Shown: in pieces, positions 22,268 to 54,515 of the stretch
Position numbering within the stretch: position 1 is the first letter of the stretch
Layout of the letters: each line of letters opens with the position of its first letter
Source: Campylobacterota bacterium
GTDB lineage: Bacteria; Babelota; Babeliae; Babelales; RVW-14
Assembly: GCA_020633995.1 (NCBI GenBank)
Contig: JACKCO010000003.1
Location: 73,503-137,502, forward strand
Length of the DNA stretch: 64,000 bases
Reading direction: 5' to 3'
Translations under genes and position numbers: made by a program
The notes under the pieces: generated by a model
Told to the model about the DNA's origin: nothing
The model's input: only the letters and a program-made list of their open reading frames with translations
Database searches by the model: none

Positions 22268-24208
22268 TTATACCGCACCACTTCCTTGACCTTGCACTTC
22301 ATCATCTGATGGCACATCAACATCATTACCCTGCTCCTCAGACGGCGACTGATCGTCATCATGAAACGAATGTGACTGACGCGGCTCAATGCCAAGCAGT
22401 TCATACACTTCAGCTGCATGTAGCGTTTCTTTTTCAAGCAACGCCTTAGCTAACGTCTCAAGCTTGTCTCGATTTTCTGTCAGTAATTTTTTACCACGCT
22501 CGTAACACATGGTAATAATCTTTTCTACTTCCTTATCGATACGTTGCATAGTGCTTTCAGAAAATTCACGCCCCGATTGGATGTCCCGACCAAGATATGG
22601 ATGCTCACTTGAAATATTATATTCAATTGGACCCAATGCAGACATACCATAACGAGATACCATGGTGCGTGCAATCTTTGTCGCCTTTTCAAGATCGTTT
22701 GAAACACCACTGGTTTGATCATTAAAAATCATTTGCTCGGCAAGCAACCCGCCAAGGCAAACAACAATGCGTGCCTCCATTTCACTCTGCGTTTGTGAAT
22801 ATTTATCACGCTCAGGCAATGACCATGAAACACCAAGCGCTCGTCCACGAGGAACAATCGTCACCTTATGCAGCGGATCAGTTTTTTGCTGCAACAGGGT
22901 CAACATTGTATGCCCTGCTTCATGGTATGCAGTCATCTCTTTGTCTTCTTGAGTAAACTTGATTGTTCTACGCTCTGCACCAAGCATGATTTTGTCACGC
23001 GCAACTTCAAAATGTCTCATCTGAACGGTCGTTTCATGTTCTTTTGATGCAAGCAATGCCGCTTCATTAATTAAGTTTTCAAGGTCAGCACCAGAAAACC
23101 CTGCAGTACCTCGTGCAATTTTTTCAAGATCAACCTGATCATGCAGCTTCACCTTACGTGCATGCACATTTAAAATTTGCGTACGACAAATCAAATCTGG
23201 AAATGGCACTTCAATGGTTCGGTCAAAACGTCCCGGACGAAGCAATGCTTTGTCCAACACATCTGGACGGTTGGTTGCTGCAAGGACAATGACTGAACCA
23301 GCCTCTGTGGTAAAGCCATCCATTTCTGCAAGCAGCTGGTTAAGTGTTTGCTCGCGCTCGTCGTTGCCGCCACCCATGCCAATACCACGCTGACGACCGA
23401 CAGCATCAATTTCGTCAATAAAAACAATGCAGGGTGAATTTTGTCGTGCTTGTTTAAACAAGTCGCGCACGCGTGATGCACCAACACCAACAAACACTTC
23501 CACAAAATCCGAGCCACTGATACTAAAAAACGGACAGTGTGCTTCACCCGCAACCGCTTTTGCTAGCAATGTTTTACCATTACCAGGCGCACCAGTTAGC
23601 AAAATACCACGCGGTATTTTTGCCCCAATTCGCGTAAATCGCTCTGGACTTTTAAGAAAGTCGATAATATCGAGCAAGTCTTCTTTAACCTCCTCAACAC
23701 CTGCAACATCTTTAAACGTTACATTAATTGAGTTGGGTGAAAAGAAGCGCGCTTTGCTGCGGCCAACATTAAAGATTTTGCCGCCGCCACCAGCGCCACC
23801 TTGTGAATGCCTGAAGTATAAGAAAAAGAGCAATACAAACAGCATAAAAATGGAAAACAAGAAATAGTGCCCGTATGACTGTTTTTCCAGTGGCACGACC
23901 TCAATATTAACACCACGGTCCTCAAGCAAGTTCCAAAACTTTTGTGTTGGGGCAACATAGGCCTCAAACATCTTGTCGTCTTTGAACTTACCCTGTACGT
24001 GCTGGTCTTGAATGACCACCATCTTAACATCGCCATCTTTAACGTGCTGCATTAGCGTTGTATAATTGATATGGCTAACTTCACGATTTATGCTGTTGTA
24101 CCAAAAAAGATACGCCAACCCCAAACATACCATCGCCAAAAGCAACCAGACTGCATTCGGCCCGCGGCCACCAAAGCCACCGCCTCTGCGCATATTGCGA
24201 TTCATCAT
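22268..24208 (-). CDS. ftsH: ATP-dependent zinc metalloprotease FtsH
   Basis: There are two N-terminal TM segments. The AAA module has Walker [19 protein letters not shown], Walker [10 protein letters not shown] and the SRH region [19 protein letters not shown]. The zinc motif HEAGH is present. Confidence 0.97.
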
Positions 24209-46620: not shown

Positions 46621-46680
46621 AGAAATTTAGATCCTCTGGTCAATCCCCTTGTCAAGCAAGAGGGCAGGCTTGGTACCGGT
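46621..46680. repeat. Solo copy of hairpin-repeat module H3 (tagatcctctggtcaatccccttgtcaagcaagagggcaggcttgg)
   Basis: The same module occurs at 48674-48716, 49518-49560 and 49934-49980, with variants at 48578-48606 and 53762-53792. Confidence 0.8.
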
Positions 46681-48411: not shown

Positions 48412-48527
48412 CAAAAACCTTTCGCTTATAAAAATGGAAAAAATGCCTGCTAACAATATCAAAAAAAAATGTTCTTATAAAATAAATGATTTTCGCTTAG
48501 ATTTTTTTGAAAAAATGAAGAACAAGT

Positions 48528-48716
48528 TCTGGATCCCGGCTCGGAGGCCGGGATGACGAGTTGGCGGGGCCGGGATGACCCCCTGGTCAAGCAAGGGGGC
48601 AGGCTCGAAGGTTGCTACGATTAGCAAGTTTGCTTACAAAAAAAAATTTGTCATTCCCGACTCTGATCGGGAATCTAGATCCTCTGGTCAATCCCCTTGT
48701 CAAGCCAGAGGACAAC
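48528..48716. repeat. Mosaic of hairpin repeat modules H1 (ggatcccggctcggaggccgggatgac), H2 (gtcattcccgactctgatcgggaatc) and H3
   Basis: Direct reading shows that each module is an imperfect palindrome and recurs in regions 49516-49990 and 53599-53795. Confidence 0.85.
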
Positions 48717-49446: not shown

Positions 49447-49515
49447 GAATAACGCTCCTTTGCCTAAAAGCAGAATCAATTTCGCAATATGCACAAGAAT
49501 TATTTTATTTTAAAG

Positions 49516-49990
49516 GAATTTAGATCCTCTGGTCAATCCCCTTGTCAAGCAAGAGGACAGGTCAGAGGATGCCCCCCTGTAGGCTCGTCGCTCCGGGCTT
49601 GATCCGGAGTCCATTCCTAAAGATAAAACCTATGTTTTTTACTCAAGTATTACCATGGATCCCGGCTCGGAGGCCGGGATGACAAGTTGGAAAGGCCTGG
49701 ATGCCCCCCTGTAGGCTCGTCACTCCGGGCTTGATCCGGAGTCCATTCCTAAAAAATAAAACTTATGTTTTTTACCCAAGTATTACCATGGATCCCGGCT
49801 CGGAGGCCGGGATGACGAGTTGGCAAGGCCGGGATAAGAGTTGGCAGGTTCAGTACTATCAAAAGTGTTTTTGAGGTGCTCGTTGTTAACTCAAATCCAA
49901 CAAAAAATTTGTCATTCCCGACTCTGATCGGGAATCTAGATCCTCTGGTCAATCCCCTTGTCAAGCCAGAGGACAGGTCAGAGCATGACA
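49516..49990. repeat. Largest hairpin-repeat mosaic, including a 132-bp tandem duplication (49567-49698 / 49699-49830)
   Basis: The module order is H3, then [gatgcccccctgtaggctcgtcRctccgggcttgatccggagtccattcctaaa...tattaccat-H1] x2, then a spacer shared with 53649-53730, then H2, then H3. The 80-aa ORF called here (49749-49991 -) is composed entirely of these repeats. Confidence 0.9.
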
Positions 49991-50007
49991 AGTTTGACTA
50001 AAAAGCA

Positions 50008-50043
50008 AAAAGAGAGGCGGCAACATTTCGTCACCGCCTCTCT
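50008..50043 (-). terminator. Rho-independent terminator of the 1137-aa ankyrin gene
   Basis: On the minus strand the sequence reads agagaggcgg-tgacgaaatgttg-ccgcctctct followed by ttttgctttt. The 10-bp stem starts 26 nt after the stop at 50069. Confidence 0.65.
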
Positions 50044-50068
50044 TTCTTTTATTTGCTCCTGATGTGGA

Positions 50069-53000
50069 CTAGTCAAATAAACCAAGGCCCATATCGCCTT
50101 CTTCTTCTTTTTCTTCTGCTACAGGAACCTTCGCATCAACACAGGCCTTTTCAAAAGAGCCTTCTGCTTGATTGATAGGCTCTTTTGTAACATAAAATGC
50201 ATGTTCTCTTGGTTTTTGTGATGTAACCTTGATATACCACGGCTTATCATCACCTACTTCTTTTTGATCCAAGCACGCTTTACCCATGAGCGCAAGCTGA
50301 TTTTTCACATCAGGGTCAAGATCAGGCTTTGACCATTCTGCTCGTATAAATTCAAAGATATTTTTATCTTGCTTATTATCATCATTGTCTATCAATGTCT
50401 TGGCAAGGTACCCATTATTTATCATCCTATGGACAATTTTATGCGCAAAGCCATATTTTTTCTGAGCAAATGCAAGCTGGAGGATATTCAAGCCGTTATT
50501 GAAATTCCATCCTGTAAAATCGTTAGGCTGAGCATAGCGCAAAACGAGATCAATAAGCTGGCCATTATTTTCGTCTGCTTCTCGAATCACATCTCCAAGC
50601 GCATGACATATAACCAACGCATTACCTTGTTTTTGATTATTCAGCACGACCGGCACACCTTGAGTAAACAACGTGCTAAGCTCTGCAGCATTACCACTTG
50701 TCACCGCTTGCTGTACAAAACCTTTAAGCTTTTGGTGCAAAGCATTGGTGTGATCTTGTTGTAGCAGTTGCTGTACGCTCTTTCCAGATGCTCTCAAGGC
50801 CCCAGCAAACGCGTTAACCGTCGTTGCGCTAAGTACTGCTTGGTTTTTTACTTGCTCTTGAGCTTGCTTACGCGCCGCAACTACGTGACGCATTTCAGAA
50901 AACTTACCACCTTGTGCTTCTCCCGCTTCTTCGTCAGGAACTTGAATTATTTCCTCAGTCTCCTTCAGCTTCCAGCCATTCTCAACCTTTTCAAGCAGGC
51001 TGCGAGCCAGATCGTCGTAGGCTTGCTTTGCAGCCTCGGAGTTGTGACTATTTAAATTATATTGATCACACAACGCATCAAATAAATGCGTTTTCTGGTC
51101 ATCGCGACCAACCGTCGCGTACACACCACGCTCGACAAAAGCTTGATGCACAGCGCGTGCAGTAGCTTGGCCACCATCATCTTGACCTATTAATGTCAAA
51201 GCATGCTCAAAATACCGTCCGTTCTGCAGCTGCTCGTCAGGGATTATGTACTGATCGCCATTTTTAGCAGTCAACATTTTTTTTGCTTGGTCAAAGTGTT
51301 TTGCAGTAATGAATCTATGTACAGTATTTGCGTAATCACACTGAACTTCATTTTTAGCAAATGTCAGCACAACATCAATAAGGCCACTTTCTGCGGCAGC
51401 AGTAATCATATCTCCACAATCAATCGTCCTAACATCAAGTTGCTCTCCACCACCTTCATGTGCTGACAACGATTTTTTAAGCAACACGTCAAGTCTATCA
51501 GTTTGGTTGGAATTAACCGCAACCAAAAGTGCTTCTTCAATCTGACCCCGAGTTGGCACACCTTTAACTTTATCGCCATATTCATTTTGATTGTACTGTG
51601 TTGCATTTTCAACCTTGTCAATCATATCATTTGCTTTGTCGAGAACACTGTCAGCTCCCACTGCTTTTGCAAGCTCAAAATGATCAGCAGTCAAGCCTGC
51701 AACGTCACCATGATGAGCTTGACCAAACCACTGCTCAAACTCACTTTGCAAAAAGTATTTTGTTGCTTGATCTGCATTTTTTGCAATGACAGCAAGTTGT
51801 TTTTCTTGACCTCGTTCAGCCAACATTGCACATGCTTGCGTAAGCGTCGTATCTTTCTCGTCAGCTTTGTGCTGCAACATTTGTAAATCGACAAGACCAT
51901 GGCGTGCAAGCATGTCAACAGCATCAGGGCTGTCATACAATGTCTCTAGAAGGCCCTCATGTTCATCGGCTGCTCCTACGTCTTTGCCTCGCTTAAGCAG
52001 ACAGCACATCTTGAAGTAGTTGCGATCACGTTGTGCTTGGAGCAGAGGAGTCAAATCATTATACTGCCCCTTTGTTTCCAATTCATCTTTGGTCATGAAA
52101 CCAAGCAGTGCAGCACCGGTAGCAACATCATCATTTTGCTCAGCAAGCGCAAGCAGTGCATCTTCGCTTGCCTTAAGCGCTTGTAAGTGCTCGTTGTCTA
52201 CGGTCTCGATTTCTGAGTATTCATCTTCTGGTGTCGTTGTAACCTGACCACGACCAACGGCAAACTTGACAATCGCTTCAACCACTGCGGTTTTTTTATT
52301 TTTGATGGCATGCTGAAGTGTTGAATGGTATTCATCGTCATCTTCATCATCGTCGTCATCACCCTCATTGTAAATCACCCAATCAGCATCATGGATCAAC
52401 TTACCTTGCGCATCATTTTGCTCTAGCAAATACGCTACACAGTGGGAATACCCAGCTTGTGCTGCTCGATCGATCATGCACATTCCATCTTTGTCTTCTT
52501 TCTCCAACGTATCCTTACTCACGTCCATGCCAAGCTCGGTGATCATTTCATCACGCTTGCCTGCATCAAGTTTGCACACATCATTGAGTGTTGCTAGTTC
52601 ATCGGAAAGCGTCATGCCTGCAGCTCTGCATTTTTTAACGACAGCTGGTTGGCCAACTACAGCGGCTCGGTCAAGTAAATTTTTTCCTTGTTCATCTACT
52701 GCTTTCAGATCAATGTTAAATCGCTCGGCCTGGGCAACCAAACGATCAAGTTTTTTACCGTCAACATCTTGTTGGTTAAGCATCTTGTCTAACTCACCCA
52801 TCACGCTGTGGTCATGATCACCCGTCACTGCTTGATACCAAGATGCAACGTTTGCCACCAACAACACGCCAACACCCAGCAAGTAACGCATGTCCGTGCG
52901 ATAATCACTCGCCTCACGCAATGCACGCGCAAGCACGTATGCATTTTGCAGCGCAGCACGTGTTTGTGCGTCAGTTTCTGGATGAATTGCAAGTGCCTCA

Positions 53001-53482
53001 CACATTGCCACAGCACCTGCCACGCATGAAAGCACATAGTCATGCATCTGTGCACCGCTGGCAAATTGTGGATCCATTAATTTTTTTTCAAACGCATGAT
53101 CACTCGTTGAAAGCGCATGCAGCCCGTTGGTAAACAGTTGCATTGCATCATAGCCAAACAACAGTCCTTCTTGAATTTTGTTTGCGTTGCGATCTTGCGC
53201 GTACCAGCTGTTGTATGCTTTAACAGCATGGCCTGTCACACGTGCAGCATCACGCACTGCGCAACGTGCATACTGTGCCTTGGTTGAACCACTCCCTTTT
53301 TGCACAGTTACAAACAAATCTGCAAGTGTTTCTACTCCTGCAAACACACACTGTGCTTTTTCTGCCTTGGTTGACACTTTCCAGTTGTCACTAACACTTG
53401 GCATCGTAATCTTGGCGTCACCCTGCACAGTCAGCCCAACACTCAGCACAAGAAGTAACGATTTAAAAAACATTTTACTCAT
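50069..53482 (-). CDS. Exported helical-domain / ankyrin-like repeat protein ending in a eukaryotic ribosomal P-stalk-like tail (1137 aa)
   Basis: The ATG at 53482 has the same ttgATGagtaaa context as the paralog. The signal peptide is MSKMFFKSLLLVLSVGLTVQGDA. The N-terminal domain is conserved. Multiple ankyrin-like units and an acidic run (DDDDEDDDE) are present. The C-terminus is ...VAEEKEEEGDMGLGLFD-stop, read directly from 50069-50119. Confidence 0.88.
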   Translation of the reverse strand: MSKMFFKSLLLVLSVGLTVQGDAKITMPSVSDNWKVSTKAEKAQCVFAGVETLADLFVTVQKGSGSTKAQYARCAVRDAARVTGHAVKAYNSWYAQDRNANKIQEGLLFGYDAMQLFTNGLHALSTSDHAFEKKLMDPQFASGAQMHDYVLSCVAGAVAMCEALAIHPETDAQTRAALQNAYVLARALREASDYRTDMRYLLGVGVLLVANVASWYQAVTGDHDHSVMGELDKMLNQQDVDGKKLDRLVAQAERFNIDLKAVDEQGKNLLDRAAVVGQPAVVKKCRAAGMTLSDELATLNDVCKLDAGKRDEMITELGMDVSKDTLEKEDKDGMCMIDRAAQAGYSHCVAYLLEQNDAQGKLIHDADWVIYNEGDDDDDEDDDEYHSTLQHAIKNKKTAVVEAIVKFAVGRGQVTTTPEDEYSEIETVDNEHLQALKASEDALLALAEQNDDVATGAALLGFMTKDELETKGQYNDLTPLLQAQRDRNYFKMCCLLKRGKDVGAADEHEGLLETLYDSPDAVDMLARHGLVDLQMLQHKADEKDTTLTQACAMLAERGQEKQLAVIAKNADQATKYFLQSEFEQWFGQAHHGDVAGLTADHFELAKAVGADSVLDKANDMIDKVENATQYNQNEYGDKVKGVPTRGQIEEALLVAVNSNQTDRLDVLLKKSLSAHEGGGEQLDVRTIDCGDMITAAAESGLIDVVLTFAKNEVQCDYANTVHRFITAKHFDQAKKMLTAKNGDQYIIPDEQLQNGRYFEHALTLIGQDDGGQATARAVHQAFVERGVYATVGRDDQKTHLFDALCDQYNLNSHNSEAAKQAYDDLARSLLEKVENGWKLKETEEIIQVPDEEAGEAQGGKFSEMRHVVAARKQAQEQVKNQAVLSATTVNAFAGALRASGKSVQQLLQQDHTNALHQKLKGFVQQAVTSGNAAELSTLFTQGVPVVLNNQKQGNALVICHALGDVIREADENNGQLIDLVLRYAQPNDFTGWNFNNGLNILQLAFAQKKYGFAHKIVHRMINNGYLAKTLIDNDDNKQDKNIFEFIRAEWSKPDLDPDVKNQLALMGKACLDQKEVGDDKPWYIKVTSQKPREHAFYVTKEPINQAEGSFEKACVDAKVPVAEEKEEEGDMGLGLFD

Positions 53483-53598
53483 CAAAAACCTTTCGTTTAT
53501 AAAAATGGAAAAAAATGCTTGCTCAACAATATCAAAAAAAATGTTCTTTTAAAATAAATGCTTTTTTAGTTGGGTTTTTTGAAAAAATGAAGAACAAA

Positions 53599-53795
53599 TT
53601 CTGGATCCCGGCTCACAGGCCGGGATGACGCGTGTTGAGGCCGGGATAAGAGTTGGCGAATTCACTACTGTCCAAAGTGTTTTTTGAGGTGCTCGTTGTT
53701 AACTCAAATCCAACAACAAAATTGTCATCCCCGAGTCCCATCGGGGATCTCTGCTTTGAGAATGCCCCTTGCTTGACAAGAGGGCAGGCTTGGGG
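53599..53795. repeat. Hairpin-repeat mosaic (H1 variant, shared spacer, H2 variant, H3 variant with inverted loop)
   Basis: The modules read ttctggatcccggctcacaggccgggatgac, gtcatccccgagtcccatcggggatc and gccccttgcttgacaagagggcaggcttgg. The H2 stem shows compensatory changes relative to 48649-48676. Confidence 0.85.
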
Positions 53796-53823: not shown

Positions 53824-54219
53824 TTAATCAAAAAAGAGTGTCGATAAACGCTTAAAACATTGATAGTGCTGATCAAGTCTTTGCGCAAGAGACTGAGCAC
53901 AATCTTCGTCGTACAAATAAGTTGCAAGATTTCTGTCTTCATGAATACTGGAAAGCTCATCTAAATCTTTTTGCGAAATGACTTCTTGCTCCAAACTTTC
54001 TTTAAAAACACCCTTAGGGCTTGCAATAGTGATACCATGCTTGTCATAAAGCAAATCTTTCATACACTTCCAAAAAACATCATAGCACAGCTCGAAGCGT
54101 TTAATTGCACTATCGCGAACCATCTCATAATCAGCAGCACTCTCCATTTTTTCAAGCGATTCTTGCAAGCGAAGCAAAATCTTTTTTAGTCCTTGTTTGC
54201 GCTTTTCTATTTTTTCCAT
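53824..54219 (-). CDS. Nucleotidyltransferase substrate-binding protein, HI0074-like (HEPN superfamily)
   Basis: The 131-aa sequence LKKILLRLQESL...RDSAIKRFELCYDVFWKCMKDLL...SPKGVFKESL... matches the HI0074-type four-helix pattern. It overlaps the upstream NTase gene by 13 nt. Confidence 0.75.
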   Translation of the reverse strand: MEKIEKRKQGLKKILLRLQESLEKMESAADYEMVRDSAIKRFELCYDVFWKCMKDLLYDKHGITIASPKGVFKESLEQEVISQKDLDELSSIHEDRNLATYLYDEDCAQSLAQRLDQHYQCFKRLSTLFFD

Positions 54220-54515
54220 ACAACCTTCGTTTCACCTATTTCTTGTTTAAAATCCTGAGAAACTCCATTAAAATCAACCACACTAATTTTGTACGGAATA
54301 TTAGATTCTTGAAACATATCGCGTGCTTCCCCAACATCAACTCGTTCAAGTTTTTTGCCGGCGTCTAAAGCCAAATCTATATCAGACCATTCACGGTGGG
54401 TTCCCTTTGCCCGTGAACCATACAAATAAATTTTAGCATCAGGAAAAAGTGCTGATAAAACACGAATAATTTTATCTTTATATTTTTGTTGTACACCATC
54501 ATCGTGCATAGACAA
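54207..54515 (-). CDS. Minimal nucleotidyltransferase, HI0073-like
   Basis: The motif is IYLYGSRAKGTHREWSDIDLALD (GS...D-x-D). The protein is 102 aa and pairs with the downstream HI0074-like gene. Confidence 0.85.
   Translation of the reverse strand: MSMHDDGVQQKYKDKIIRVLSALFPDAKIYLYGSRAKGTHREWSDIDLALDAGKKLERVDVGEARDMFQESNIPYKISVVDFNGVSQDFKQEIGETKVVWKK

What the first reader, a model, noticed from the sequence alone, without database searches (positions are those of the whole stretch)
49516..49990. Modular family of short hairpin repeats forming mosaics in the accessory region (REP/MITE-like), with compensatory stem changes between copies
Seen in sequence: at least four modules recur in shuffled order at 46621-46680, 48528-48716, 49516-49990 and 53599-53795, with related copies at 29157-29223 and 30668-30705.
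- H1: ggATCCcggc-tcggag-gccgGGATgac
- H2: gtcattcccga-ctctga-tcgggaatc
- H3: cctctgg-tcaatccccttgtcaagc-cagagg
- H4: gctcgtcRctccgg-gcttga-tccggagt

Stems differ between copies in a base-pair-preserving way: cccggc/gccggg vs cctgaa/ttcagg, and ttcccga/tcgggaa vs tccccga/tcgggga. A 132-bp unit (H4 + AT-rich spacer + H1) is tandemly duplicated at 49567-49830. No transposase is nearby.

Inference: this is a non-autonomous repeat family selected for secondary structure, with possible roles in RNA stability or termination, as recombination substrates, or as protein-binding sites. It frames the TA modules and the paralogous effector genes. I cannot match it to a named family from memory.
Basis: seen in the sequence. 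Interest (0 to 1): 0.55.

Follow-up and report, generated by a model that had tools for sequence, protein, structure and literature searches.

The report
Ssn-type (NTS/SRM) DNA hairpin repeats
The repeated hairpins are real, but they belong to a hairpin-repeat family described in 2025 (NTS/SRM, cut as single-stranded DNA by small GIY-YIG "Ssn" nucleases), found here in an intracellular Dependentiae bacterium, so this is a new host for a known element rather than a new kind of element.

Summary
**Observation:** confirmed. Four intergenic junctions (46.6, 48.5, 49.5 and 53.6 kb) and two sites near the tol operon (29.2 and 30.7 kb) carry short hairpin repeats. A 133-bp unit is tandemly duplicated at 49567-49835.

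**What the modules are:**
- H1 (read on the opposite strand), H2 and H4 are one kind of element: (C/T)GTC, 7-8 bp stem, 5-7 nt loop, stem, then C-YRG.
- This is the layout of Neisseria NTS/dRS3 and the "Ssn-related motifs" (SRM) of Chenal et al. 2025.
- H3 is specific to this lineage. It has SRM-like flanks and a 17-nt loop.

**Evidence for family membership:**
- A covariance model trained only on hairpins from other phyla finds 11 strand-specific window copies (E from 1e-10 to 1.5e-3).
- The exact H1 hairpin occurs in more than 120 loci across many phyla.
- In four distant genomes H1-type hairpins flank a ~95-aa GIY-YIG gene. That was the only protein family recurring next to H1 in unrelated taxa.
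- Stem covariation is supported by an anchor-only test.
- Relatives lack the 29-kb doublet, so it is an insertion.

**Caveats:**
- No nuclease or transposase gene lies in the 64 kb, and the rest of the genome could not be read.
- The published SRM search pattern misses every window copy; eight of them fail by a single substitution.

**Verdict:** new member of a known kind; modest interest.

The parts
48528..48559 (-). H1 copy: SRM-type hairpin cGTC-ATCCCGGC-ctccga-GCCGGGAT-C-CAG, about 70 nt upstream of the 568-aa effector gene
   Evidence: Covariance model R1: 45.2 bits, E 1.4e-10. Perfect 8-bp stem. One substitution from the published SRM pattern.
48568..48579 (+). Solitary half-site GGCCGGGATGAC (3' arm plus GAC), 22 nt after the same arm of H1. 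It runs into a degenerate H3-like hairpin at 48579-48605.
   Evidence: Pattern search. The same spacing follows all four H1 copies. Similar half-sites follow 10 of 130 H1 copies in other phyla, against 2 upstream.
48648..48679 (+). H2 copy: tGTC-ATTCCCGA-ctctga-TCGGGAAT-C-TAG. It shares GTCATTCCCG...CGGGAATCTAG with Neisseria NTS.
   Evidence: R1: 40.4 bits, E 3.5e-9. DNA fold -6.9 kcal/mol. One substitution from the SRM pattern.
48678..48714 (-). H3 copy, fused tail-to-tail to H2 through the palindromic CTAG: tG-TCCTCTGG-(17-nt loop CTTGACAAGGGGATTGA)-CCAGAGGA-TC-TAG on the minus strand
   Evidence: 100% identical over 74 nt to 49902-49975. Fold. Pattern search.
46624..46673 (-). Solo H3 copy between the DUF4143 ATPase gene and the 3' end of the 568-aa effector gene
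   Evidence: 97.8% identical to 49517-49561. A Logan contig of the same organism ends inside it.
49515..49567 (-). H3 copy just upstream of the MNT-HEPN operon. It keeps a remnant of the H2 arm (GGAATtTAG). Its loop TTGACC is the -35 of a promoter-like site.
   Evidence: 96% identical to 49931-49983. Promoter-like TTGACC-18-TAAAAT at 49536-49507, minus strand.
49567..49835 (.). Tandem duplication (2 x 133 bp) of a tail-to-tail hairpin doublet: H4 (sense), 47-nt AT-rich spacer, H1 (antisense)
   Evidence: TRF score 480, 94% matches. BLAST 94% over 137 nt.
49585..49615 (+). H4 copy 1: cGTC-GCTCCGG-gcttgat-CCGGAGT-C-CAT (CTTGA-type loop)
   Evidence: R1: 31.5 bits, E 1.2e-6.
49654..49685 (-). H1 copy (first tandem unit)
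   Evidence: R1: 45.7 bits, E 9.8e-11. DNA fold -8.8 kcal/mol, z -3.2.
49717..49747 (+). H4 copy 2: cGTC-ACTCCGG-gcttgat-CCGGAGT-C-CAT
   Evidence: R1: 38.9 bits, E 9.4e-9.
49787..49818 (-). H1 copy (second tandem unit), followed by half-site 49827-49838 and a ~70-nt middle segment shared with 53650-53722
   Evidence: R1: 45.1 bits. 87% identity over 134 nt to 53602-53734. Alignment A4.
49909..49940 (+). H2 copy
   Evidence: R1: 40.4 bits, E 3.5e-9.
49931..49983 (-). H3 copy fused to H2, downstream of the terminator of the 1138-aa effector gene
53600..53631 (-). H1 copy (loop ctgtga), upstream of the 1138-aa effector gene, with half-site at 53639-53650
   Evidence: R1: 43.9 bits, E 3.4e-10..
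53722..53753 (+). H2 variant with compensatory stem change: tGTC-ATCCCCGA-gtccca-TCGGGGAT-C-TCT
   Evidence: R1: 24.5 bits, E 1.3e-4. DNA fold -7.7 kcal/mol, z -3.2.
53763..53793 (+). Degenerate H3-like hairpin GCCCCTTG-cttga-CAAGAGGGC. It has the same arms as 46645-46670, but the loop is inverted (CTTGA vs TCAAG).
29151..29229 (.). Tail-to-tail doublet of two SRM-type hairpins (29151-29181 plus strand, 29199-29229 minus strand) inside the tolR-tolA spacer
   Evidence: R1: E 1.5e-3 and 7.3e-6. The spacer is 196 nt here against 9-14 nt in two related Babeliales genomes with the same gene order.
30666..30705 (.). Near-perfect palindrome GCTCGTCAtaCCGGC-ccccga-GCCGGagTGACGAGC upstream of tolQ. 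It is an H1-like hairpin with the GTCA flank on both strands.
   Evidence: DNA fold -17.8 kcal/mol, z -8.8. R1: E 0.1. 96% match to H1 copies of other phyla over 25 nt.

Best explanation
**What it is.** The repeats are members of the NTS/SRM class of DNA hairpin repeats. Each is an oriented ~30-nt element: (C/T)GTC, a 7-8 bp GC-rich stem, a 5-7 nt loop, then C-YRG.

**Published mechanism (Chenal et al. 2025).** When the DNA is single-stranded, the element folds into a hairpin. A small single-domain GIY-YIG nuclease (Ssn) binds it and cuts just upstream of the stem.

**Proposed history here.**
- The hairpins spread as non-autonomous elements. The usual unit is a tail-to-tail doublet, comparable to a REPIN.
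- They have accumulated in the intergenic junctions of an accessory array of effector and toxin-antitoxin genes in a Dependentiae (Babeliales) genome.
- Recombination and slippage between copies then produced the local composites: the 133-bp tandem duplication, the collinear H1...H2-H3 junctions, and H3 copies flanking a toxin-antitoxin module.

**Shown here:** family membership by sequence and structure, hairpin potential, covariation, insertion relative to related genomes, and association of the same hairpin with GIY-YIG genes in other genomes.

**Inferred only:** that an Ssn nuclease exists in this genome and acts on these copies, and any effect on recombination, DNA uptake or expression.
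For: **1. The layout matches NTS.** All copies have GTC directly 5' of the stem and C directly 3' of it. Those are the positions the paper found critical for cleavage and binding. H2 shares GTCATTCCCG...CGGGAATCTAG with NTS.

**2. An independent model finds the window copies.** Covariance model R1, built only from hairpins of other phyla, finds 11 window copies at 21-46 bits. The opposite strand scores only about 11 bits. All hits are intergenic.

**3. The exact H1 hairpin is widespread.** Taxa include Alpha-, Beta- and Gammaproteobacteria, Bacteroidota, Patescibacteria, Dehalococcoidia, Cloacimonadota and Nitrospirae. The loop is conserved as TCGGRG.

**4. The hairpin is linked to GIY-YIG genes elsewhere.**
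- In L036, L048, L061 and L091 a ~95-aa PF01541-only GIY-YIG gene is flanked on both sides by clusters of these hairpins.
- It was the only protein family recurring next to H1 in unrelated taxa.

**5. Covariation is supported without circularity.** Anchors GTC-N8-CTTGA-N8-C gave 63 hits, against 8 in the reversed-sequence control. 56 of the 63 had at least 7 of 8 pairs. On the 29 distinct sequences, 7 of 8 pairs show double changes and 0 of 500 shuffles reach the observed score.

**6. The doublet arrangement is shared across phyla.** 59 of 130 foreign H1 copies have a sense-oriented partner upstream, against 9, 5 and 3 for the other three arrangements. This is the H4/H1 arrangement of the window.

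**7. There is evidence of mobility.**
- The tolR-tolA spacer is 196 nt with the doublet here, against 9-14 nt in relatives.
- A related genome has the same hairpin type at a different site, after tolB.
Against: - No GIY-YIG or Ssn gene lies in the 64 kb. An HMM search of the six-frame translation gave only E >= 1.
- The remaining roughly 660 kb of the contig could not be fetched.
- The published SRM search pattern gives 0 exact hits in the window. H1, H2, the 53.7-kb H2 variant and the second H4 copy each need one substitution; the first H4 copy needs 2, H3 needs 3 and the 29-kb doublet needs 4.
- In the paper, changing the NTS stem sequence while keeping the hairpin abolished cleavage by the Neisseria enzyme. 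A cognate enzyme therefore cannot be assumed.
- H3 is not detected by the model and was found in no other genome searched.
- The GIY-YIG association rests on 4 adjacent cases among 120 loci.
Confidence: 0.72

Rival explanations
1. They are REP/BIME-type elements serviced by a RAYT (a Y1 HUH transposase of the IS200/IS605 kind), not by a GIY-YIG nuclease.
For: - Mosaic clusters and inverted doublets resemble BIMEs and REPINs.
- A GTAG tetranucleotide lies 6 nt upstream of the GTC of both H4 copies.
Against: - No Y1 transposase lies in the window.
- No RAYT-like family recurred next to H1 in 120 loci; only GIY-YIG did.
- The conserved 5' flank is GTC(A), not GTAG placed directly at the stem.
- REP sequences are species-specific, whereas H1 is identical across phyla.
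Confidence: 0.06
2. The pattern is only a local segmental duplication with gene conversion, in a region of paralogous effector genes, with no family-level biology.
For: - The two effectors are paralogues, about 90% identical over their N-terminal ~300 residues.
- 48415-48558 vs 53486-53630 continues that duplication.
- The three junctions are collinear, and a tandem duplication is present.
Against: - The same hairpins lie 17-20 kb away in the tol operon, in a related genome, and in more than 120 loci of other phyla.
- The toxin-antitoxin modules between the junctions are not homologous to each other.
- Local duplication explains the composites. It does not explain the hairpins.
Confidence: 0.1
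3. They act at the RNA level, as terminators, mRNA 3'-end stabilisers or portable promoter parts. That function, not a DNA enzyme, maintains them.
For: - All copies are intergenic.
- REP elements in E. coli stabilise upstream mRNA (my own knowledge, not checked here).
- The TTGACC in the H3 loop forms a promoter-like site 13 nt upstream of the MNT start codon.
- The common CTTGA(C) loop resembles a -35 box.
Against: - No T-tract follows the hairpins.
- The only canonical terminator in the region is a separate hairpin at 50047-50007.
- Copies occur in both orientations relative to the genes, as doublets.
- Rfam gave no match.
- The strand-specific flanks match the DNA-level recognition determinants reported for Ssn.
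Confidence: 0.08
4. The junctions are attC-like sites of an integron-type cassette array. The genes share one orientation and the array includes toxin-antitoxin cassettes.
For: - Four gene units on the same strand are separated by structured repeats.
- H3 copies directly flank the HEPN-MNT module: 48670-48714 and 49515-49559 are 95.6% identical.
Against: - No integrase lies in the 64 kb.
- I saw no R''/R' (RYYYAAC/GTTRRRY) boundaries by eye.
- 'Cassettes' of 1.7 and 3.4 kb that carry their own upstream regions and a terminator are atypical.
- The hairpins match a different, defined family.
Confidence: 0.03

Closest known systems
NTS / Ssn-related motifs (SRM) with SsnA GIY-YIG single-strand nucleases (Chenal et al., Nat Commun 2025, PMC11893778)
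   Same: - An oriented hairpin of about 28-32 nt.
- GTC(A/T) directly 5' of the stem and C-YRG directly 3' of it.
- Intergenic, clustered around particular genes, and enriched in host-associated bacteria.
- The same H1 hairpin flanks small GIY-YIG genes on both sides in other genomes.
   Different: - No window copy matches the published degenerate pattern exactly; the shortfall is 1-4 substitutions.
- No ssn gene lies within 64 kb.
- The host phylum, Dependentiae, is not among those named in the parts of the paper I read.
- I did not see tail-to-tail doublets, 22-nt half-site echoes or the H3 module described there.
Neisseria dRS3 repeats and NIMEs (neisserial intergenic mosaic elements)
   Same: H2 carries ATTCCC...GGGAAT with the same outer flanks. 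The repeats form intergenic mosaics.
   Different: The spacer is N10 rather than N8. The repeat units between hairpins are unrelated. dRS3 is also a phage integration target, which was not examined here.
REP / BIME / REPIN elements with RAYT transposases
   Same: Short extragenic palindromes with compensatory stem variation. Inverted doublets and mosaic clusters. The putative mobilising gene is flanked by its own repeats.
   Different: The conserved flank is different (GTC rather than GTAG at the stem). The partner enzyme belongs to a different superfamily (GIY-YIG rather than HUH Y1). The sequences are nearly identical across phyla rather than specific to a species.
Rickettsia palindromic elements (RPE) and Correia-type MITEs
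   Same: Small palindromic repeats proliferating in the genomes of host-associated bacteria.
   Different: RPEs and Correia elements are 100-150 bp units with terminal inverted repeats, and often insert into genes. Here the unit is a 30-nt hairpin or a doublet of them. No terminal inverted repeats or target-site duplication were seen.

Membership tests
NTS/SRM (Ssn-related hairpin motifs) | Oriented hairpin: GTC(W)(Y) directly 5' of a GC-rich 7-8 bp stem with a short loop | tested here: met
   12 copies with this layout. The covariance model from other phyla scores them at 21-46 bits on one strand and about 11 bits on the other.
NTS/SRM (Ssn-related hairpin motifs) | C immediately 3' of the palindrome, followed by YRG (the paper's key binding determinant) | tested here: met
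   H1: C-CAG or C-CAT. H2: C-TAG. H4: C-CAT. The 53.7-kb variant has C-TCT.
NTS/SRM (Ssn-related hairpin motifs) | Match to the published search pattern HGTCWYN(0-2)YYVSBRHN(0-5)WNVSBRGN(0-2)RNCYNB | tested here: not met
   - 0 exact hits in the window, against 0.16 in shuffles.
- With one substitution there are 13 hits, 8 of them the hairpins.
- NTS itself and the commonest foreign partner hairpin match at 0 substitutions. H1, H2, the 53.7-kb H2 variant and the second H4 copy match at 1, the first H4 copy at 2, H3 at 3 and the 29-kb doublet at 4.
- The pattern was built by hand from 29 genomes.
NTS/SRM (Ssn-related hairpin motifs) | Over-representation relative to shuffled sequence, and intergenic location | tested here: met
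   10 copies against 1.26 +/- 1.37 in shuffles. All model hits with E <= 0.0015 lie between ORFs. This covers the 64-kb window only.
NTS/SRM (Ssn-related hairpin motifs) | A cognate ssn gene (single-domain GIY-YIG, cd10448) in the same genome, typically flanked by the motif | tested here: inconclusive
   - None in the window.
- The rest of the 728-kb contig is not retrievable.
- In other genomes the identical H1 hairpin flanks ~95-aa PF01541 genes.
- Assignment of those genes to cd10448 could not be checked.
NTS/SRM (Ssn-related hairpin motifs) | Cleavage of the single-stranded motif by the Ssn nuclease | not testable with these tools
   This needs biochemistry.
REP/RAYT | Conserved GTAG head at the palindrome, and a RAYT (Y1 transposase) gene flanked by REPs | tested here: not met
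   The head is GTC(A). A GTAG occurs only 6 nt upstream of H4. No Y1 transposase lies in the window, and none recurs near H1 in 120 loci.
Integron attC array | An intI integrase nearby and attC sites with R''/R' core sites | tested here: not met
   No integrase was found among the window ORFs scanned. I saw no core sites by eye in the junction sequences.
Rfam structured RNA families | Match at or above the gathering score | tested here: not met
   0 matches in the 64 kb on both strands.

The most novel reading that the evidence does not exclude
The real mobile unit may be the tail-to-tail doublet: a partner with a CTTGA loop plus a partner with a CYCCGA loop. The same arrangement is preferred from Patescibacteria to Proteobacteria and Dependentiae. 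Under this reading Ssn GIY-YIG nucleases mobilise doublets in trans. Ssn/SRM would then be a distinct, horizontally spreading class of DNA transposon. In this genome the doublets would bracket toxin-antitoxin and effector genes and drive their shuffling as cassettes.
Probability: 0.2. Interest if true: 0.7.

Novelty: new member of a known kind. Interest (0 to 1): 0.3.

Why it matters
- It places the Ssn-type hairpin repeats in Dependentiae (TM6), a phylum of obligate intracellular bacteria of protists.
- The published SRM search pattern misses the H1 hairpin by one position, although H1 proved very widespread across phyla here. Published counts of these motifs are therefore probably underestimates.
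- The orientation bias of doublets (59 against 9, 5 and 3) and the 22-nt half-site echoes constrain any model of how the elements spread.
- For annotation: these hairpins break short-read assemblies, and they mark the boundaries of the accessory effector and toxin-antitoxin array.

Tried and rejected
- **Rfam at gathering threshold:** no match.
- **Exact published SRM pattern:** no hit in the window.
- **Metagenome scan with the H3 core:** 3 hits, all chance matches inside unrelated coding DNA.
- **Viral contig scan with H1:** only 2 contigs. Phage carriage is therefore not supported, and I did not follow it further.
- **Fetching the rest of the source genome failed.**
  - The HEPN protein, the 3011-aa protein and the NCBI FtsH are not on record.
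  - Only short Logan contigs of the same organism were returned.
- **Homologue search with the 568-aa effector:** returned only itself, so I could not reach paralogues elsewhere in the genome.
- **PDB search with a hairpin-flanked GIY-YIG protein:** nothing. NCBIfam gave only a weak hit to the GIY-YIG N-terminus.
- **Literature search for the exact H1 strings:** only cloning-site noise.
- **Rejected as full explanations:** terminators, integron attC sites, REP/RAYT, and pure local duplication. See the rival explanations.
- **Possible general link to toxin-antitoxin modules:** only 1 of 120 loci (L003) has similar modules near H1.
Full report

Yes.
- The region 49495-50068 and three other intergenic junctions share repeated segments of 26-146 nt at 87-100% identity.
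- Tandem Repeats Finder reports a 133-bp unit repeated twice at 49567-49835, with 94% matches.
- A simple finder for GTC-stem(>=7)-loop-stem-C gives 10 copies in the window. Fifty dinucleotide-preserving shuffles give 1.26 +/- 1.37, with a maximum of 6.
- The main region folds as single-stranded DNA with z = -7.3.

**2. Anatomy**

H1 read on the opposite strand, H2 and H4 have the same layout:

| Module | Sequence |
|---|---|
| H1 (opposite strand) | cGTC-ATCCCGGC-ctccga-GCCGGGAT-C-CAG |
| H2 | tGTC-ATTCCCGA-ctctga-TCGGGAAT-C-TAG |
| H2 variant at 53.7 kb | tGTC-ATCCCCGA-gtccca-TCGGGGAT-C-TCT |
| H4 | cGTC-(A/G)CTCCGG-gcttgat-CCGGAGT-C-CAT |
| 29-kb pair | TGCTGAA/TTCAGCA and TCCTGAA/TTCAGGA |

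These are one oriented hairpin type with co-varying stems.

H3, read on the minus strand, has similar flanks: tG-TCCTCTGG...CCAGAGGA-TC-TAG. Its loop is 17 nt and begins with CTTGA.

The hairpins pair up tail to tail:
- H4 with H1, separated by a 47-nt AT-rich spacer. This pair is the 133-bp tandem unit.
- H2 with H3, fused through a palindromic CTAG.
- The two hairpins at 29151-29229.

Each of the four H1 copies is followed, 21-22 nt later, by a solitary copy of its 3' arm (GGCCGGGAT...).

The junctions at 48.5, 49.8 and 53.6 kb are collinear rather than shuffled. The order is H1, half-site, middle segment, H2, H3. The ~70-nt middle is shared by 49.8 and 53.6 kb only; 48.5 kb has an unrelated filler there.

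Some similarity comes from the duplication of the two paralogous effector genes, which extends through their upstream regions. The toxin-antitoxin modules between junctions are not homologous to each other. One is HEPN plus MNT; the other is NTase_sub_bind plus MNT. The two MNT proteins share only 30% identity over 43 residues.

**3. Context**

All four gene units lie on the minus strand: the 568-aa effector, HEPN-MNT, the 1138-aa effector, and NTase_sub_bind-MNT.

The rest of the window holds:
- ftsH and tolQ-tolR-tolA-tolB;
- ankyrin proteins;
- several giant proteins with Tectonin and MIR domains.

There is no transposase, integrase or GIY-YIG gene among the ORFs scanned, and the gaps between ORFs are too small to hide one. 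The 3,805-aa and 3,011-aa ORFs were not run through Pfam.

The FtsH protein is 100% identical to one from an NCBI MAG labelled 'Epsilonproteobacteria bacterium', on a 728,521-bp contig. The next-best hits, at 74% identity and below, are from Candidatus Babeliales / Dependentiae. The organism is therefore a Dependentiae bacterium.

**4. Relatives elsewhere**

- Taxa include Alpha-, Beta- and Gammaproteobacteria, Bacteroidota, Patescibacteria, Dehalococcoidia, Cloacimonadota, Nitrospirae and others.
- The loop is mostly TCGGGG or TCGGAG, and the flanks are conserved.
- Only the hairpins recur in these loci. H3, the AT-rich spacer and the middle segment do not.
- H3 was also absent from metagenome contigs apart from chance hits.
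- Of the 130 foreign H1 copies, 59 have a sense-oriented partner hairpin upstream, which is the tail-to-tail arrangement. The other three arrangements have 9, 5 and 3. The partner usually has a CTTGA loop, like H4.

**5. What it is**

A literature search on the hairpin sequence led to Chenal et al. 2025 (PMC11893778). The paper reports the following:
- Neisseria dRS3 repeats are part of a 28-nt oriented hairpin, NTS (CGTCATTCCCGCGMAVGCGGGAATCYRG).
- Similar 'Ssn-related motifs' occur in many phyla.
- They flank a small GIY-YIG gene (ssnA, cd10448).
- The protein binds the hairpin only as single-stranded DNA and cuts just upstream of it.
- The three bases 5' of the stem matter for cutting, and the C after the stem matters for binding.

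The window hairpins have exactly those features.

Three tests were run here.
- **Independent model.** A covariance model built only from 49 hairpins of other phyla found 11 window copies at 21-46 bits (E from 1e-10 to 1.5e-3). All are intergenic and strand-specific.
- **Gene association.** Among the fetched loci, four from distant taxa have a ~95-aa PF01541-only GIY-YIG gene with dense hairpin clusters on both sides: Cloacimonadota, Patescibacteria, Jiella and Pseudovibrio. In an all-against-all comparison of ORFs within 400 nt of H1, this was the only family recurring across unrelated taxa.
- **Covariation without circularity.** Anchors GTC-N8-CTTGA-N8-C gave 63 hits, against 8 in reversed sequence. 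56 of the 63 had at least 7 of 8 complementary positions. On the 29 distinct sequences, 7 of 8 pairs show changes on both sides. There are 41 such cells, against 10.4 in shuffles, and 0 of 500 shuffles reach the observed score. Sliding the partner by one column halves the pairing.

**6. Mobility**

Two related Babeliales genomes keep the tolQ-tolR-tolA-tolB-ftsH gene order.
- Their tolR-tolA spacer is 9-14 nt. Here it is 196 nt and holds the doublet.
- One relative carries a hairpin of the same type (ATCCTGAA-cttgt-TTCAGGAT) at a different place, after tolB.

**7. Limits**

- The published degenerate SRM pattern gives no exact hit in the window. H1, H2, the 53.7-kb H2 variant and the second H4 copy each miss by one substitution. 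The first H4 copy misses by 2, H3 by 3 and the 29-kb doublet by 4. I treat this as a limit of a hand-made pattern, but strictly it is a test not met.
- No ssn gene lies in the 64 kb, and the rest of the genome could not be retrieved.
- The paper shows that specificity depends on sequence as well as structure. Cleavage of these copies is therefore an inference.

**8. Rivals**

- **Terminators or RNA elements.** The hairpins lack T-tracts. A separate canonical terminator sits at 50047-50007. Rfam is silent. One promoter-like site does use the TTGACC of the H3 loop as its -35, just upstream of the MNT gene.
- **REP/RAYT.** The head motif is wrong, and no Y1 transposase was found here or near H1 elsewhere.
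- **Integron attC array.** No integrase, and the 'cassettes' are atypical.
- **Pure local duplication.** It explains several copies and the composites. It does not explain the hairpin family.

**9. Verdict**

The interpretation as a structure-selected, non-autonomous repeat family is right in outline. The element does, however, match an already described class, so it is a new member of a known kind.

The points that go beyond the paper, as far as I read it, are:
- the Dependentiae host;
- the strong tail-to-tail doublet bias across phyla;
- the half-site echoes;
- the lineage-specific H3 module;
- the fact that the published search pattern misses the widespread H1 variant.

Noticed in passing
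window 22268-24208 (ftsH) and the whole window: The source is an NCBI MAG named 'Epsilonproteobacteria bacterium' (locus tags H6679_). Its FtsH and its tol-ftsH gene order match Candidatus Babeliales / Dependentiae, so the taxonomic label looks wrong.
   Followed up: partly
window 1-45250: A run of very large paralogous proteins, up to 3805 aa, carries eukaryote-like Tectonin, Hyd_WA, MIR, Ins145_P3_rec and Methyltransf_FA domains. One also has a 93-bp coding tandem repeat at 441-967.
   Followed up: no
window 49507-49536 (minus strand): A promoter-like site, TTGACC-18 nt-TAAAAT, takes its -35 from the loop of an H3 copy and ends 13 nt before the MNT start codon. The repeat may supply a promoter to the toxin-antitoxin operon.
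   Followed up: no
window 46645-46670, 48579-48605 and 53765-53790: Degenerate H3-like hairpins share the same arms and 3' flank (CAAGAGGGCAGGCT), but the loop is TCAAG in two copies and CTTGA in the third. This is a loop inversion ('flip-flop').
   Followed up: no
window 48568-48579, 49694-49705, 49827-49838, 53639-53650: Every H1 copy is followed 21-22 nt later by a lone copy of its 3' arm. Similar echoes follow 10 of 130 H1 copies in other phyla, against 2 upstream. This may be a footprint of how the element is copied or repaired.
   Followed up: partly
L036 2200-2330 (Cloacimonadota MAG): One hairpin upstream of the GIY-YIG gene has a 49-nt insertion in its loop (GTCATCCCGGC...GCCGGGATCCAG). 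This parallels the enlarged loop of H3.
   Followed up: no
L121 (3' end) and L127 (5' end): Logan short-read contigs of this organism and of a relative end exactly inside the hairpin repeats. The repeats fragment assemblies.
   Followed up: no
L003 1487-5863 (uncultured Pseudomonadota): A hairpin doublet lies about 600 nt from two MNT plus NTase_sub_bind toxin-antitoxin modules of the same type as window 53824-54515. It is the only such case among 120 loci.
   Followed up: partly
window 49577-49589 and 49709-49721: CTGTAGGCTCGTC: a GTAG, the head motif of RAYT-type REPs, lies 6 nt upstream of the GTC of both H4 copies.
   Followed up: no
window 50069-53485: The 1138-aa effector paralogue was not returned by the protein homologue search that found the 568-aa one. 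It may be unannotated or marked as a pseudogene in the public record.
   Followed up: no
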